Origin: a virus
Virus record (IMG/VR): IMGVR_UViG_3300020411_000003
Reading direction: 5' to 3' (one strand)
DNA: 64,000 nt
Position 1 is the first letter of the stretch; the number at the start of each line of letters is the position of its first letter. The notes below the pieces were generated by a model. That model did not search any database and had not been told where the DNA came from. It saw only the letters and a list, made by a program, of their open reading frames with translations. Of the stretch, positions 36,376 through 64,000 are shown piece by piece. A program made the translations under genes and the position numbers.

Positions 36376-36449
36376 TAGGAGTGGTGGGATTCGAACCCAC
36401 ACTGGAAAGATTTTAAGTCTTCTATCTCTGCCGATTGGATTACACTCCC
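36376..36449 (-). tRNA. trnL: tRNA-Leu(TAA)
   Basis: Cloverleaf: anticodon arm GAAGA-CTTAAAA-TCTTT, T-loop TTCGAAT. Confidence 0.9.
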
Positions 36450-36452
36450 AAA

Positions 36453-36526
36453 CGACTCAGGTAGGATTCGAACCTACGACCGACTGCTTAGAAGGCAGTT
36501 GCTCTTGTCCACTGAGCTACTGAGTC
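36453..36526 (-). tRNA. trnR: tRNA-Arg(TCT)
   Basis: Acceptor GACTCAG/CTGAGTC; anticodon arm ACTGC-CTTCTAA-GCAGT. Confidence 0.92.
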
Positions 36527-36528
36527 AA

Positions 36529-36601
36529 TAGGGGTTACGGGGATCGAACCCGTCTCCTATCAATTATGAGTTGATTGCATTCACCAGATTGCTAAACCCC
36601 T
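36529..36601 (-). tRNA. trnI: tRNA with CAT anticodon, probably Ile2 (lysidine) rather than Met
   Basis: Anticodon arm ATCAA-CTCATAA-TTGAT; paired first base pair, so not an initiator. Confidence 0.8.
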
Positions 36602-37616: not shown

Positions 37617-37917
37617 GGGGGTATTCCACCCCCGATAGGTTATTTGGGTTAGAAGGCTAACCTAACCCCCATCTCACCTTATGGTCTAAACAGCCACGAG
37701 GTCACGAGTTGCAACCTTGCTGAATGGACGTGAGAATGCTACGATGTTATTCGCAGCAGGTGTATCTGTTTTAGCAGATGTTGTTTGCTTATCCAAGCAG
37801 GTTTCAGTCCCGATCCTTATACCCTGTCGAAGCCATGGCATCCCCTCGAATGGAGATGACGGGAATCGAACCCGTGTCCAGAATGTAGGTGTCGTCACCT
37901 ATTCCCCAGAAGGGGAA
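37617..37917 (-). ncRNA. ssrA: circularly permuted (two-piece) tmRNA, cyanobacterial type
   Basis: T-arm ACGGG-TTCGATT-CCCGT plus CATCTCC-A precedes GGGGATG; acceptor stem with G3-U70; tag frame ANNIVAFSRPFSKVATRDLVAV* at 37754-37686. Confidence 0.9.
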
Positions 37918-37989
37918 AGCCAACAGTCGGATTTGAACCAACGACCTTCGCTTTACAAAAGCGTTGCTCTACCACTGAGCTATGCTGGC
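37918..37989 (-). tRNA. trnT: tRNA-Thr(TGT)
   Basis: Acceptor GCCAGCA/TGTTGGC; anticodon loop TT-TGT-AA; T-loop TTCAAAT. Confidence 0.9.
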
Positions 37990-59310: not shown

Positions 59311-59491
59311 GGGGTGGGAGGTAGGAATTATGTGTACCTACAAGTACAGGGCATTTCTACATAAGTAAATTTTTACTGTACTGCATGAGTCCTGTCTGGT
59401 TGGACAGTTCTGTTGTTGCCAACAGCGAGCACCACCTCTGACTCATCACCTTAACTAGACCATTGCCAGCAAGTTTAATTCAGTCACTCCC
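59311..59491 (-). ncRNA. highly structured RNA in the gp32 leader, tentatively manA-motif-like
   Basis: Multiple stems (GAGTC/GACTC, CTGTTG-GCAA-CAACAG, CTGTC/GACAG, AGTACAG/CTGTACT, GTAGG/CCTAC, GGGAG/CTCCC) and a TTATGT/ACATAA pseudoknot; family name from recall only. Confidence 0.65.
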
Positions 59492-59517
59492 GTGTCAGGT
59501 AGCTAACCCGACATTTA

Positions 59518-61809: not shown

Positions 61810-62448
61810 TTATTTCCACTCCAATGCTTCAGATACTATAGGGAACTGTTCAACAAAGATAGATCTAACCATCTCTGCTATCTCCATGTGTTCCTTCTGG
61901 GTTCCATGTGCAGACCGTAGATCTATGTAGTGTACCCATGAACGAACACTACCTGTCATATATAACCGAGTCGGTGTAGCGAGAGGTAGTACAAACCGAG
62001 CACATTCTTTTGCAATTCCTGCATGCAACATCTTCTTATAGAGATCAATACTAGCATCAAATTGCTTTCGCATCTCTATATTAAATGTCTCCACCACTTT
62101 AGGATCAACATCATCAACAGAGTTCTGTCTGTTCTTTAGATCTTGACTGCGTAATGCTGGCAATGGAATATCTTCTCTAATATGAGAGACATCTGCATAC
62201 CGTTGTGAAAATTCTTGATATGTGAACGACCTATGACGAAGGATTTGAGCTGCCAGTCCTCTGGTAGTCTCGATCTCCACTGTCATGTGTGCCTGTTCGA
62301 AAACGGACCAGTGACCATGCTTTATGCAATACTTTAGCAATCCACTCACGTTTGGATTGTCTTGGTTGTTTGGGTTGCTGACTCTCGCCACGTAACCCAT
62401 CGTTTCCTCCGCTTTGGGAGTCACTGTTATTAGTCTCACTTGTTGCAT
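61810..62448 (-). CDS. thyX: flavin-dependent thymidylate synthase
   Basis: HGHWSVFEQA, QILRHRSFTYQEFSQRY, ECARFVLP, TQKEH. Confidence 0.95.
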   Translation of the reverse strand: MQQVRLITVTPKAEETMGYVARVSNPNNQDNPNVSGLLKYCIKHGHWSVFEQAHMTVEIETTRGLAAQILRHRSFTYQEFSQRYADVSHIREDIPLPALRSQDLKNRQNSVDDVDPKVVETFNIEMRKQFDASIDLYKKMLHAGIAKECARFVLPLATPTRLYMTGSVRSWVHYIDLRSAHGTQKEHMEIAEMVRSIFVEQFPIVSEALEWK

Positions 62449-62804: not shown

Positions 62805-62860
62805 CAAAAAAATCCAGGAAAAAATTTTCCTGGATTCATTGAAATCAAAACTGATTTTTG
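62805..62860. repeat. palindromic element ATCCAGG-AAAAAATTTT-CCTGGAT, related to the 56418 element
   Basis: Same loop and flanks, different stem. Confidence 0.6.
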
Positions 62861-62866
62861 ATTTTA

Positions 62867-63007
62867 CTATGCTGTTACTAACTTTTTAGCAACTTTGATA
62901 CCACGATACATTAGTTCGTAGTTTCTTTCCTTTTGAGCTTCGTCAAGGATTAACTTGCGATACTCTTCAGTGTCGTACTTGACACCACGGTAAGTGACTT
63001 GTGCCAT
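62867..63007 (-). CDS. DUF4278 protein (46 aa)
   Basis: MAQVTYRGVKYD...LMYRGIKV; GAGGA SD; start moved from the track's 63058. Confidence 0.8.
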   Translation of the reverse strand: MAQVTYRGVKYDTEEYRKLILDEAQKERNYELMYRGIKVAKKLVTA

Positions 63008-63038
63008 TGGCTTTTCCTCAGTAGTAGGGTGGATGAGA

Positions 63039-63228
63039 CCCGTTCCTTCAGTCGGCATTTGCGTCCCAGCAACCTAGATGATATGTCTCCTCGATCACGA
63101 CCTGAACAATCTCAGCTCGTAACTCTTCCCTCATCTCATAATTGTTCTGAACATTATCGACTAAGCGATAAGCATCAGCACATGAGAGAGTGGCAGCAAT
63201 AACAGCTAGGTGAAACATAGGATGAACG
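63039..63228 (-). ncRNA. glutamine-II (Downstream-peptide)-like riboswitch, copy 2, with a 149-nt loop
   Basis: CGTTCA-TCCTA...TGGGA-CGCAAATGCCGACTGAAGGAACGGG upstream of DUF4278. Confidence 0.7.
63048..63218 (-). CDS. 56-aa ORF nested in riboswitch copy 2 (MFHLAVIAATLSCADA...GCWDANAD)
   Basis: Manual translation; 171 nt open from ATG to TGA. Confidence 0.65.
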   Translation of the reverse strand: MFHLAVIAATLSCADAYRLVDNVQNNYEMREELRAEIVQVVIEETYHLGCWDANAD

Positions 63229-63230
63229 AT

Positions 63231-63275
63231 CCGTTCCGTGTCGGCTTACTTGCGCTCTGTGTAACAGAGTGAACG
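63231..63275 (-). ncRNA. glutamine-II-like riboswitch, copy 1 (compact)
   Basis: CGTTCA-CTCTG-TTACA-CAGAG-CGCAAGTAAGCCGACACGGAACGG. Confidence 0.7.
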
Positions 63276-63278
63276 TAA

Positions 63279-63311
63279 TGTCATGATAACATGACAAAAT
63301 TATTTAGTCAA
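63279..63311 (-). promoter_or_regulatory. promoter TTGACT-17-TATCAT, with palindrome TGTCATG-N4-CATGACA over the -10 box
   Basis: Predicted start site falls at the 5' end of riboswitch copy 1. Confidence 0.7.
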
Positions 63312-63347: not shown

Positions 63348-63557
63348 TTAACAATCTCTGTCTTCTATAAAATCTGGACATAACATAGCACCTGCAAGTT
63401 CTCTTGCTTTAGGGTTGTTGTCACACAATTTATTCATCCAGATCCTCTCGTCGAGAGAGACCTCACCATCAGTGGACATCATTCTACAACAAATATCAGT
63501 GAGTTGCAACTGGTATTTGTTGCTTAACTTGTTGGATGGCTGCAGGAAGGAGAGCAT
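63348..63557 (-). CDS. conserved small cyanophage protein (start uncertain)
   Basis: LSNKYQLQLTDICCRM...VSLDERIWMNKL. Confidence 0.6.
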   Translation of the reverse strand: MLSFLQPSNKLSNKYQLQLTDICCRMMSTDGEVSLDERIWMNKLCDNNPKARELAGAMLCPDFIEDRDC

Positions 63558-64000
63558 ATTCTTTACGTTGAATTTTAGGGGTTAATGTTTCGACTGTATC
63601 ATCTGGTTCAATAGGTACTTCATATTGAAGGATGACTTCACCTGCGTCTAACTCTTCATTAACATAATGAACAGTACAACCAGTGACTTTATCACCTGCT
63701 TCCAATGCTTGTTCGACAGCATGGAGTCCTTTATATTTTGGAAGCAGTGATGGGTGTAGATTAATTATTCTATTGGGAAATGCTTTGATAAAATCAGGTG
63801 ATACCACCCTCATATATCCAGCAAGAACAATAAGATCTACTCTCCATGCTTTCATTAACTGAATGATCTGGTCTTCATTCTTATGAGAAATATAACAATG
63901 AGGAACACCAAACTTCTCTGCTTTCTTAGCAGCACCACACTCTTTCTTGTTGTGTATCATCAACACAACTTCATCTTCCCAACATGACCTTAGAATATTC
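63496..64000 (-). CDS. purN: phosphoribosylglycinamide formyltransferase, 5' end outside the window
   Basis: DLIVLAGYMR, IINLHPSLLPKYKG, TGCTVHYVNEELDAG; frame open to the window edge. Confidence 0.95.
   Translation of the reverse strand, partial: NILRSCWEDEVVLMIHNKKECGAAKKAEKFGVPHCYISHKNEDQIIQLMKAWRVDLIVLAGYMRVVSPDFIKAFPNRIINLHPSLLPKYKGLHAVEQALEAGDKVTGCTVHYVNEELDAGEVILQYEVPIEPDDTVETLTPKIQRKEYALLPAAIQQVKQQIPVATH

What the first reader, a model, noticed from the sequence alone, without database searches (positions are those of the whole stretch)
63039..63228. A 56-codon ORF forms the loop and 3' half of a glutamine-II-like riboswitch
Seen: the aptamer 5' strand CGTTCA-TCCTA ends on the A of an ATG. 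A 149-nt loop follows, and the 3' half TGGGA-CGCAAATGCCGACTGA-AGGAACG is encoded by the last codons (W-D-A-N-A-D-stop) of the same ORF. DUF4278 starts about 30 nt later. Known: glutamine-II (Downstream-peptide) riboswitches precede DUF4278 genes in marine picocyanobacteria, and glutamine riboswitches control glutamine-synthetase inactivating factors. Inference: translation of the nested ORF and aptamer folding are mutually exclusive, giving a translation-gated riboswitch or attenuator; alternatively a gene has parasitised the loop. Either would let the phage tune host nitrogen assimilation.
Basis: partly seen in the sequence, partly recalled or inferred. Interest (0 to 1): 0.78.

Follow-up and report, generated by a model that had tools for sequence, protein, structure and literature searches.

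The report
Gene nested inside interlocked glutamine riboswitch
An uncultured marine cyanophage begins a small two-gene operon with a glutamine-sensing RNA built from two strand-swapped sensor cores, and one sensor hairpin closes around a real 56-codon gene, so sensing nitrogen status and translating that gene must compete on the same RNA; I found no paper that describes this layout.

Summary
On the minus strand, CGTTCA-TCCTA (63228-63218) ends on the A of an ATG. A 56-codon ORF follows (63218-63048). TGGGA-CGCAAATGCCGACTGAAGGAACGG (63068-63039) covers its last codons and stop. A DUF4278-like gene starts at 63007.

The ORF is a real gene: phrog_504, two invariant Cys, coding-type substitution pattern. 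The 5-bp stem across it pairs and covaries in 132 unique relatives.

A compact copy sits directly upstream (63275-63232). In all 58 relatives that vary at the one variable helix position, pairing holds only if the copies are strand-swapped: the first CGUUC pairs with the last GGAACG, and the middle GGAACG pairs with the second CGUUC.

Related phages show every combination of compact and ORF-bearing hairpins. Compact versions pass Rfam's glutamine (RF01739) threshold. Standard scans miss the split form.

Because start and stop lie in or beside sensor helices, folding and ORF translation are physically exclusive. Whether this gives opposite glutamine control of the two genes is inferred, not shown.

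This scan has already noted the same layout in at least 79 other genomes. I found no published description.

The parts
63283..63311 (-). Sigma-70-type (early) promoter: TTGACT, 17-nt spacer, TG-TATCAT. The predicted start lies 1-3 nt before the RNA element.
   Evidence: 10 of 12 consensus matches, extended -10. Relatives carry TTGACT..TATAAT at the same place.
63270..63275 (-). CGTTCA, the 5' strand of the outer helix (core 1). It pairs with GGAACG at 63046-63041.
   Evidence: Sequence. Covariation CGUUU:GAAACG in 11 relatives.
63255..63269 (-). P1a hairpin of core 1 (CTCTG-TTACA-CAGAG), compact in this phage.
   Evidence: covarying stem in 65 compact relatives. The same loop carries a 61-75 aa ORF in 31 of 125 relatives.
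63238..63254 (-). Joining strand J1: CGCAAGTAAG plus the linker CCGACAC.
   Evidence: Invariant CGCAAGTA(A/G)G in all parsed loci. Matches the Rfam glutamine consensus.
63232..63237 (-). GGAACG, the 5' strand of the inner helix. It pairs with CGTTC at 63228-63224.
   Evidence: GCAACG co-occurs with CGTTG in all 57 fully parsed relatives that carry either variant. The local hairpin is -3.9 kcal/mol.
63223..63228 (-). CGTTCA, the 3' strand of the inner helix (core 2), 3 nt after the GGAACG above.
63218..63222 (-). P1b 5' strand, TCCTA. Its last A is the A of the nested ORF's ATG.
63048..63218 (-). Nested ORF of 56 aa (phrog_504). It has a hydrophobic N-terminus, invariant Cys13 and Cys50, and the aptamer-encoded tail WDANAD. 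The stop TGA is at 63050-63048.
   Evidence: coding substitution pattern; three-helix model, pLDDT 81.7.
63064..63068 (-). P1b 3' strand, TGGGA (codons W and D). It pairs with TCCTA across 149 nt.
   Evidence: compensatory C-G/U-A/A-U changes.
63047..63063 (-). Joining strand J2, CGCAAATGCCGACTGAA. It holds the ORF's last codons and its stop.
   Evidence: Letter-identical in compact aptamers L028, L115 and L120.
63041..63046 (-). GGAACG, the 3' strand of the outer helix.
   Evidence: A and A are invariant in IMG/VR (searches found no variants).
63027..63041 (-). Small hairpin GGGT...ACCC. Its first G is the last G of GGAACG, so it competes with the outer helix and may be part of the expression platform.
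   Evidence: RNAalifold consensus of 62 relatives: 3 pairs, the third with G-C/G-U/A-U types.
63015..63019 (-). Shine-Dalgarno-like GAGGA, 7 nt before the downstream ATG.
   Evidence: Sequence; conserved position in the alignment.
62867..63007 (-). DUF4278-like (IF17-like) ORF of 46 aa: MAQVTYRGVKYD...
   Evidence: Pfam PF14105 at 23.7 bits (threshold 25.3) and phrog_5049 at E 1e-20.
62810..62837 (-). Intrinsic terminator that ends the roughly 465-nt transcription unit.
   Evidence: 12-bp stem followed by a T run.

Best explanation
**What it is (shown by sequence and comparison).** A roughly 465-nt early transcript begins with a double glutamine sensor made of two homologous half-units that pair with each other's strands.
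- The outer helix is 63275-63271 with 63045-63041.
- The inner helix is 63236-63232 with 63228-63224.
- Each helix is flanked by its own hairpin (P1a, P1b) and CGCAA joining strand.
- Hairpin P1b (63222-63218 with 63068-63064) closes around a genuine 56-codon gene.
- The gene's AUG starts on the last stem pair, directly after the inner helix, with no separate ribosome-binding site.
- Its UGA lies 1 nt before the outer helix's 3' strand.

**What follows physically.** A 30S subunit initiating on this AUG must melt the inner helix and P1b. Elongating ribosomes keep the P1b strands apart. A terminating ribosome covers the outer helix strand. So a folded sensor and ORF translation cannot coexist on one RNA.

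**How I think it works (inferred).**
- At high glutamine, both cores lock. The nested gene is shut off and the DUF4278-like gene is switched on, as in cellular glutamine riboswitches.
- At low glutamine, the 5-bp long-range stem is open and the nested gene is translated. Ribosome traffic then keeps the sensor unfolded.
- The result would be opposite, sharpened outputs from one mRNA.
For: - **Layout:**
- **Conservation:** six cultured phages and 94 of 125 IMG/VR loci.
- **P1b:** pairs 1-4 are 99-100% paired in 132 unique sequences with C-G/U-A/A-U swaps. Pairs 3-5 beat 1000 shuffles. When the Trp codon TGG changes to TAG or TAA, the 5' strand compensates, so the RNA and not the peptide tail is under selection.
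- **Strand swap:** among 176 fully parsed loci there are four strand states, and all 58 non-canonical loci are Watson-Crick only in the swapped pairing.
- **Sensor identity:** compact relatives pass RF01739 at 35.4-41 bits against 35. The window's 3' half is identical to theirs.
- **Real gene:** 94 of 94 frames are intact, with lengths of 49-66 aa. Substitutions by codon position are 643/294/1055. Synonymous to non-synonymous changes are 550:402 in frame, against 208:813 and 98:909 out of frame. The family is phrog_504, with invariant Cys13 and Cys50.
- **Start position:** the ATG lies 9-11 nt after the C of CGTTCA in 85 of the 91 loci with an in-frame start (95 long-form loci). The stop is inside the aptamer 3' half in 90 of 94.
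- **Precedent:** glutamine riboswitches are translational ON switches for DUF4278/IF17 genes (PMC6212724; PMC6698751). The glutamine-II RNA can form the same swapped helix, as shown by its crystal dimer (PMC7357161).
- **Energetics:** the interlocked fold is only 4.6 kcal/mol above the MFE.
Against: - There is no binding or expression data, so the sign of regulation for either gene is inferred.
- Related phages with compact hairpins (31 of about 125) show that the ORF is dispensable for the sensor.
- In this window's subclass I could not find the helix that links the ORF stop to the downstream Shine-Dalgarno in 126 of 137 relatives. I also could not find the P3 helix of the other subclass. Its expression platform is therefore unclear.
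- The helix covariation rests on one variable position (5:36) and perhaps only 2-3 independent events.
- Closing a 5-bp stem over 149 nt may be slow in vivo.
- The MFE fold is not unusual (z = -0.67).
Confidence: 0.55

Rival explanations
1. Passenger gene. The P1 loop tolerates any insert. The small gene sits there only to save space or to share the early promoter. The sensor works between rounds of translation, and no regulatory coupling has been selected.
For: Compact and ORF-bearing forms coexist in close relatives, in all four combinations. The loop sequence is irrelevant to the aptamer, and the riboswitch can be split into two RNAs (PMC6698751). The nested protein has no known link to nitrogen.
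Against: The ATG is fixed on the stem's last pair in nearly all of 94 loci, despite about 37% protein identity. No independent Shine-Dalgarno is present. The stop is inside the sensor in 90 of 94. Both ORF families, in both hairpins, obey the same rule. A pure passenger could start and stop anywhere in the loop.
Confidence: 0.2
2. Translational coupling or attenuator-like logic. Translation of the nested ORF is the positive signal for the downstream gene, because the terminating ribosome melts the helix that occludes its ribosome-binding site. Glutamine then acts mainly by blocking nested-ORF initiation, so both genes go down together at high glutamine.
For: In 126 of 137 unique relatives, CU(G/A)AAG, which contains the nested stop, can form 6 bp with a hexamer ending 9-11 nt before the downstream ATG. 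Shuffles give 3.8 of 137. The pairings are A:U, G:C and G:U, and never A:C.
Against: That helix is absent in this window and its subclass. Compact relatives lack the ORF yet keep the same helix, so the platform must work without ORF translation. The predicted sign is opposite to the ON switch measured for cellular glutamine riboswitches (PMC6212724). There is no enrichment of Gln codons and no terminator/antiterminator pair.
Confidence: 0.12
3. Two ordinary side-by-side aptamers, each pairing its own CGUUC with its own GGAACG. The second simply has a long loop.
For: With canonical sequences both pairings are possible. Rfam aligns compact second copies alone at 35-39 bits. The constrained fold energy is only 1.5 kcal/mol worse than the swapped fold. 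Sherlock et al. 2022 list 157 glutamine doublets as independent units.
Against: All 58 loci with a variant at position 5:36 would carry C.C, G.G, U.C, G.A or C.A mismatches in one or both helices under this model. They are perfectly paired when swapped. In the GUCGC subclass, a P3 helix linking J1 to the end of J2 covaries (GUCG:CGAC to GUCA:UGAC).
Confidence: 0.05
4. A decayed riboswitch remnant. Insertion of the gene destroyed the second sensor, and the flanking similarity is only recent ancestry.
For: Rfam and my own covariance model do not report the split unit as one hit.
Against: All core nucleotides are invariant across relatives whose nested proteins are only about 37% identical. The stem covaries across the ORF. 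A37 and A38 never vary in IMG/VR.
Confidence: 0.03

Closest known systems
Glutamine-I riboswitch (glnA RNA motif, Rfam RF01739), e.g. the Synechocystis gifB (IF17) leader (Klahn et al. 2018, PMC6212724)
   Same: It shares the core sequence CGUUCA-hairpin-CG(C/G)AAGUA...GAAGGAACG and a closing helix CGUUC:GGAACG. It also sits in the 5' leader of a DUF4278/IF17-type gene. Compact phage relatives pass the family threshold.
   Different: Here the closing helix encloses a second, circularly permuted core whose helix is made from the neighbouring copy's strands. One hairpin loop also holds a translated gene. The window itself is not reported above threshold.
Glutamine-II riboswitch (Downstream-peptide motif, RF01704) of Prochlorococcus/Synechococcus, and its domain-swapped crystal dimer (PDB 6QN3; PMC6698751, PMC7357161)
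   Same: It shares the P1 hairpin, the CGUUC:GGAACG helix and the glutamine pocket nucleotides. Most relatives also have a P2-like helix around GGAACG that abuts the ribosome-binding site. The crystal dimer pairs C1-C5 of one molecule with G36'-G41' of the other, the same swap that covariation supports here within one RNA.
   Different: The crystal swap was judged a non-physiological artefact. Here it appears to be the selected, intramolecular fold. The window's subclass lacks the P2 helix. The upstream copy scores 32.8 bits against a threshold of 33.
Tandem ('doublet') glutamine riboswitches, classed as pseudo-cooperative independent units (Sherlock et al. 2022, PMC9481103)
   Same: Two glutamine aptamer copies lie in a row before one gene. 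The arrangement is common (157 doublets reported).
   Different: The review treats them as side-by-side switches with separate expression platforms, and mentions neither cross-pairing nor ORFs inside aptamers. The linker here is 2-6 nt, and covariation supports cross-pairing.
Homing-endonuclease ORFs in peripheral loops of group I introns (e.g. phage T4 td/I-TevI; from my own knowledge, not checked here)
   Same: A protein gene is housed in a loop of a functional structured RNA in a T4-like phage, and translation can interfere with RNA folding.
   Different: That RNA is a ribozyme and the ORF is a mobile-element gene. Here the RNA is a metabolite sensor, and the ORF start and stop are built into the sensor helices.
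Leader-peptide attenuation (trp, his operons; from my own knowledge)
   Same: Ribosome position on a short upstream ORF decides which RNA structure forms.
   Different: There are no regulatory codon runs and no terminator/antiterminator pair. The ORF encodes a conserved 2-Cys protein family, and the signal is read by an aptamer, not by tRNA charging.

Membership tests
Glutamine riboswitch (Rfam RF01739, glnA / glutamine-I) | Covariance-model score at or above the gathering threshold (35 bits) | tested here: not met
   In the window only the upstream copy is reported, at 26.9 bits. There is nothing at gathering level, and the split unit is invisible. Compact relatives score 35.4-41 bits, with halves identical to the window's.
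Glutamine riboswitch (Rfam RF01739, glnA / glutamine-I) | Conserved core nucleotides CGUUCA / CG(G/C)AAGUA / GAAGGAACG | tested here: met
   63275-63270, 63254-63245 and 63049-63041. These are invariant in 22 compact doubles.
Glutamine riboswitch (Rfam RF01739, glnA / glutamine-I) | Closing helix CGUUC:GGAACG supported by covariation | tested here: met
   Met only in the strand-swapped register: C-G to U-A in the outer helix (11 loci) and C-G to G-C in the inner helix (57 loci).
Glutamine riboswitch (Rfam RF01739, glnA / glutamine-I) | Hairpin next to the pocket, variable in sequence but always paired | tested here: met
   P1a is a compact hairpin. P1b is a 5-bp stem across the 149-nt ORF and covaries in 132 unique sequences.
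Glutamine riboswitch (Rfam RF01739, glnA / glutamine-I) | Selective binding of L-glutamine | not testable with these tools
   Needs in-line probing or ITC of the full-length and loop-deleted RNA.
Glutamine-II riboswitch (RF01704, Downstream-peptide) | Covariance-model score at or above the threshold (33 bits) | tested here: not met
   The upstream copy scores 32.8 bits, just under threshold. The second copy is not reported.
Glutamine-II riboswitch (RF01704, Downstream-peptide) | P2 helix enclosing GGAACG (H-type pseudoknot) | tested here: not met
   Present in 126 of 137 relatives but absent in this window and its subclass. Only a 3-4 bp GGGT/ACCC hairpin is found.
Glutamine-II riboswitch (RF01704, Downstream-peptide) | Lies upstream of a short DUF4278-type ORF | tested here: met
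   PF14105 scores 23.7 bits, sub-threshold against 25.3. phrog_5049 has E 1e-20. The association is documented in PMC6212724.
Side-by-side tandem riboswitch | Each aptamer pairs within itself and is an independent unit | tested here: not met
   All 58 variant loci are mismatched under intra-copy pairing and matched under cross-copy pairing.
Leader-peptide attenuator | Short non-functional peptide with codons for the sensed amino acid, plus terminator/antiterminator alternatives | tested here: not met
   The ORF has 2 Gln in 56 residues. It belongs to a conserved protein family under purifying selection. There is no terminator between the ORFs.
phrog_504 small protein family (cyanomyovirus 'T4-like GC 430') | Profile match and shared residues | tested here: met
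   phrog_504 matches at E 1.6e-12. GC 430 is annotated at the same position in P-SSM7 and S-SSM7. Cys13 and Cys50 are invariant and Glu36 is nearly so.

The most novel reading that the evidence does not exclude
The two sensor cores are a natural, intramolecular version of the 'domain-swapped dimer' that was dismissed as a crystal artefact. Together with the gene built into one hairpin, they would form a ribosome-gated bistable switch. Glutamine would lock the RNA and turn on the IF17-like gene. Lack of glutamine would let ribosomes onto the nested gene, which then keeps the sensor unfolded. One phage mRNA would thus give two mutually exclusive protein outputs according to host nitrogen status. 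The same rule would apply to a second gene family nested in the other hairpin in many relatives.
Probability: 0.35. Interest if true: 0.88.

Novelty: new variant of a known kind. Interest (0 to 1): 0.8.

Why it matters
Riboswitch aptamers are thought of as compact non-coding domains. Tandem glutamine riboswitches are described as independent side-by-side units. Three points follow.

- A conserved protein gene sits inside an aptamer hairpin, with its start and stop built into sensor helices. This is a way of coupling metabolite sensing to translation that I did not find described.
- Natural sequence variation supports strand-swapped pairing between the two copies. That changes how glutamine doublets should be modelled. 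It also gives a biological meaning to the swapped helix seen in the glutamine-II crystal.
- The layout is invisible to Rfam-type scans, so riboswitch surveys of phage genomes undercount it.

It is widespread in marine T4-like cyanophages, which infect globally important primary producers. It controls an IF17-like (glutamine-synthetase-inhibitor-like) gene, so it bears on how phages read and rewire host nitrogen status. It is directly testable with short RNAs and reporter fusions.

Tried and rejected
- **tblastn of the nested protein against cultured phages** found nothing. The cause was probably the low-complexity filter and the short query, because DNA-level hits and PHROG and HMMER searches did find relatives.
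- **My single genome-contig scan was wasted.** I used a 14-base pattern that was too unspecific, and all 120 loci were chance matches in unrelated bacteria. So I could not test whether host cyanobacteria have the nested or interlocked layout.
- **No whole genome is held for the window**. The genome search on two phage records found only the first core, once per genome.
- **The MFE fold of the leader is unremarkable** (z = -0.67) and does not recover the sensor. Constrained folds do not discriminate between the topologies.
- **RNAalifold on the 3' platform** recovered only a 3-bp hairpin.
- **My covariance model of compact doubles** hits the window's two halves separately, at 32.6 and 27.2 bits, and cannot bridge the ORF.
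- **Scans for variants at A37 and A38** of the last helix strand found none.
- **Function of the nested protein is unknown.** Foldseek against the PDB and the ESM Atlas gave nothing.
- **Ames & Breaker 2011 is not held**, so I could not check its text for a description of nested or tandem forms.
- **Rejected readings:** a Gln-codon attenuator, a non-coding ORF and a decayed aptamer. Reasons are given in the rivals section.

Full report
**Observation.** All genes at this end of the window are on the minus strand.
- CGTTCA lies at 63228-63223 and TCCTA at 63222-63218. The last A of TCCTA begins ATG 63218-63216.
- The ORF runs to TGA at 63050-63048 (56 aa).
- Its last codons TGG GAC GCA AAT GCC GAC TGA are at the same time TGGGA (63068-63064), CGCAAATGCCGACTGAA (63063-63047) and, 1 nt later, GGAACG (63046-63041).
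- A DUF4278-like ORF starts at ATG 63007.
- A sigma-70-type promoter (63311-63283) and an intrinsic terminator (62837-62810) bracket the unit.

Rfam scores this copy 32.8 bits on Glutamine-II (threshold 33) and 26.9 bits on Glutamine (threshold 35). Nothing here reaches gathering level in the whole-window scan.

**Is it more than chance?** A distant DNA search found the same region in cultured cyanomyoviruses.
- In S-SSM4, P-TIM40, P-SSM7, S-SSM7, P-RSM6 and P-SSM2, the second copy reads CGTTCATC(C/T)(C/T)ATG, then an ORF of 49-62 codons, then (C)ATGGGACGCA(A/G)A..GACT(G/A)AAGGAACGG.
- In P-TIM68 and the uncultured virus AG-345-P14, the same copy is a compact hairpin with no ORF.
- In P-SSM7 and S-SSM7 the ORF is annotated as 'T4-like GC 430'.

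Of 125 parsed units, 94 carry an ORF in the second hairpin and 31 are compact. In 31 the first hairpin also carries an ORF. All four combinations occur.

**The stem across the ORF.** I anchored on CGTTCA and CGCA and scored the stem position by position in 132 unique ORF-bearing sequences.
- Pairs 1-4 are paired in 99-100% of sequences.
- Pair 3 is C-G, U-G or U-A. Pair 4 is C-G, U-A, U-G or A-U. Pair 5 is A-U, U-A or C-G.
- Pairs 3-5 exceed all 1000 partner shuffles. Pairs 6-7 are unconstrained.

So this is a 5-bp stem, like that of compact aptamers. In several loci the Trp codon TGG is TAG or TAA and the 5' strand compensates (TCCTATGC...GCATAGGA; TCTTATG...ATAAGA). Selection therefore acts on the RNA stem and not on the peptide tail.

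**The ORF is a gene.**
- All 94 nested ORFs are intact and in frame. Lengths range from 49 to 66 aa, and stem-offset changes are matched by length changes modulo 3.
- Between pairs of equal length, differences fall 643/294/1055 on codon positions 1/2/3.
- Single-base codon changes are 550 synonymous to 402 non-synonymous in frame. In the other frames they are 208:813 and 98:909, and those frames hold 4-6 stops per ORF.
- The protein matches phrog_504 (E 1.6e-12), has no Pfam family, and has only metagenomic or viral relatives.
- In an alignment of 50 members (mean column identity 37%), Cys13 and Cys50 are invariant and Glu36 nearly so. D52, A53 and D56 are invariant because the aptamer dictates them.
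- AlphaFold2 gives three helices at pLDDT 81.7. No structural neighbour is informative.
- ORFs in the first hairpin (61-75 aa) have the same design, and a profile comparison aligns them Cys to Cys (hhalign probability 64%, E 6.5e-5). This fits duplication of a whole core-plus-gene unit.

**Topology.** With canonical sequences, CGUUC and GGAACG of either copy can pair. I searched IMG/VR for variants of the second G of GGAACG in each copy and parsed all four strands in 176 complete loci. The strand states, in the order first CGTTC, first GGAACG, second CGTTC, last GGAACG, were:

| Loci | Strand state |
|---|---|
| 118 | CGTTC / GGAACG / CGTTC / GGAACG |
| 47 | CGTTC / GCAACG / CGTTG / GGAACG |
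| 10 | CGTTT / GCAACG / CGTTG / GAAACG |
| 1 | CGTTT / GGAACG / CGTTC / GAAACG |

Every one of the 58 variant loci is Watson-Crick paired if the first CGUUC pairs with the last GGAACG and the middle GGAACG pairs with the second CGUUC. Under copy-internal pairing, every one has at least one mismatched helix, and 57 of the 58 have both (I checked these by eye). No variants exist at the two A positions.

In the GUCGC subclass, a helix AGUCG:CGACU joins the first joining strand to the end of the second, with a GUCA:UGAC swap. Rfam's model aligns one compact double in exactly this way: 86 nt, 41 bits, with a 39-nt insert.

The element is therefore one interlocked double sensor and not two neighbours. 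The variation sits at a single position and may reflect only 2-3 events, which is the main caveat.

The published glutamine-II crystal is a domain-swapped dimer in which C1-C5 pair with G36'-G41' of the partner. It was judged not to occur in vivo (PMC7357161). The phage RNA looks like the same swap made intramolecular.

**Family membership.**
- Compact second copies in relatives pass RF01739 (38.8, 37.8 and 35.4 bits).
- The window's halves are letter-identical to such compact forms.
- My covariance model of 22 compact doubles finds the window's halves separately, at 63277-63203 (32.6 bits) and 63110-63040 (27.2 bits), and cannot span the ORF.

So standard scans miss the split form.

**Mechanism.** The following is shown by sequence.
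- The AUG's A is stem pair 5.
- The 10 nt before it are the inner helix strand and the stem. There is no room for a separate ribosome-binding site.
- The stop lies 1 nt before the outer helix strand.

From the established size of the ribosome footprint, initiation, elongation and termination on this ORF each disrupt a sensor helix. A folded sensor in turn buries the start.

The direction of regulation is inferred. Cellular glutamine riboswitches switch DUF4278/IF17 genes ON (PMC6212724; PMC6698751). I therefore propose that high glutamine shuts off the nested gene and turns on the downstream gene. Low glutamine would do the reverse, reinforced by ribosome traffic.

In 126 of 137 relatives the hexamer CU(G/A)AAG, which holds the nested stop, pairs with a hexamer that abuts the downstream Shine-Dalgarno. 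Shuffles give 3.8, and there are no A:C mismatches. This could instead couple the two ORFs positively. That helix is absent in the window's subclass, where only a GGGT/ACCC hairpin sharing the last G of GGAACG is seen. The platform here remains unresolved.

**Literature.**
- Searches for glutamine riboswitch with cyanophage, tandem, nested, domain-swapped, or ORF within the aptamer found no description.
- The 2022 review of tandem riboswitches lists 157 glutamine doublets as independent pseudo-cooperative units. It contains neither 'nested' nor 'interlock'.
- Ames & Breaker 2011 is not held.

**Earlier notes of this scan.** They report the same layout in at least 79 other genomes and reach the same 'interlocked cores' reading. 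I re-derived that reading here from my own scans.

**Verdict.** This is a new variant of a known riboswitch kind, of high interest.

Noticed in passing
L122, L019, L027, L033, L055, L058, L088 and others (IMG/VR loci): In about a quarter of relatives, the first hairpin (P1a) also encloses a gene of 61-75 aa with two invariant Cys. Some of these proteins have a clear signal-peptide-like N-terminus. The start lies in the stem, and the stop lies in the stem or at the TAA of CGCAAGTAAG. Some phages carry genes in both hairpins.
   Followed up: partly
L019, L024, L040, L079, L094, L122, L129, L138 (after the last GGAACGG): An extra conserved hairpin module (GAAACGGATCC-stem-loop-GAGAAGGTT...) of about 30 nt is inserted between the sensor and the downstream ribosome-binding site in a subset of relatives. 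Its function is unknown.
   Followed up: no
many IMG/VR loci, e.g. L014, L015, L017, L026: In many relatives the gene after the sensor is not DUF4278-like (MAQVTYRG...). It belongs to another small family starting MNTL(N/T)(L/I)I.., so the same sensor controls at least two different downstream gene families.
   Followed up: no
window 63056-63058 (-): An ATG inside the second joining strand (CAAATGCC) is in frame with the DUF4278-like ORF and would add 17 residues (the 63-aa ORF). It exists only in the AAATG subclass, so it is probably not used.
   Followed up: partly
window 63279-63296: The palindrome TGTCATG-N4-CATGACA overlaps the -10 box of the promoter. The + strand scan flags it as terminator-like. 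It could be an operator.
   Followed up: no
window 59311-59513 (-): A full-length manA RNA motif (RF01745) scoring 163 bits.
   Followed up: no
window 37618-37934 (-) and 36376-36601 (-): A phage-encoded cyanobacterial-type permuted tmRNA (RF01851, 134.8 bits) lies next to three tRNA genes.
   Followed up: no
window 61810-62448 (-) and 63496-63999 (-): The flanking ORFs look like a ThyX-type thymidylate synthase and a PurN-like formyltransferase, judging from their translations only. The window is about 72% identical at best to cultured cyanomyoviruses, so it is an uncultured lineage.
   Followed up: no
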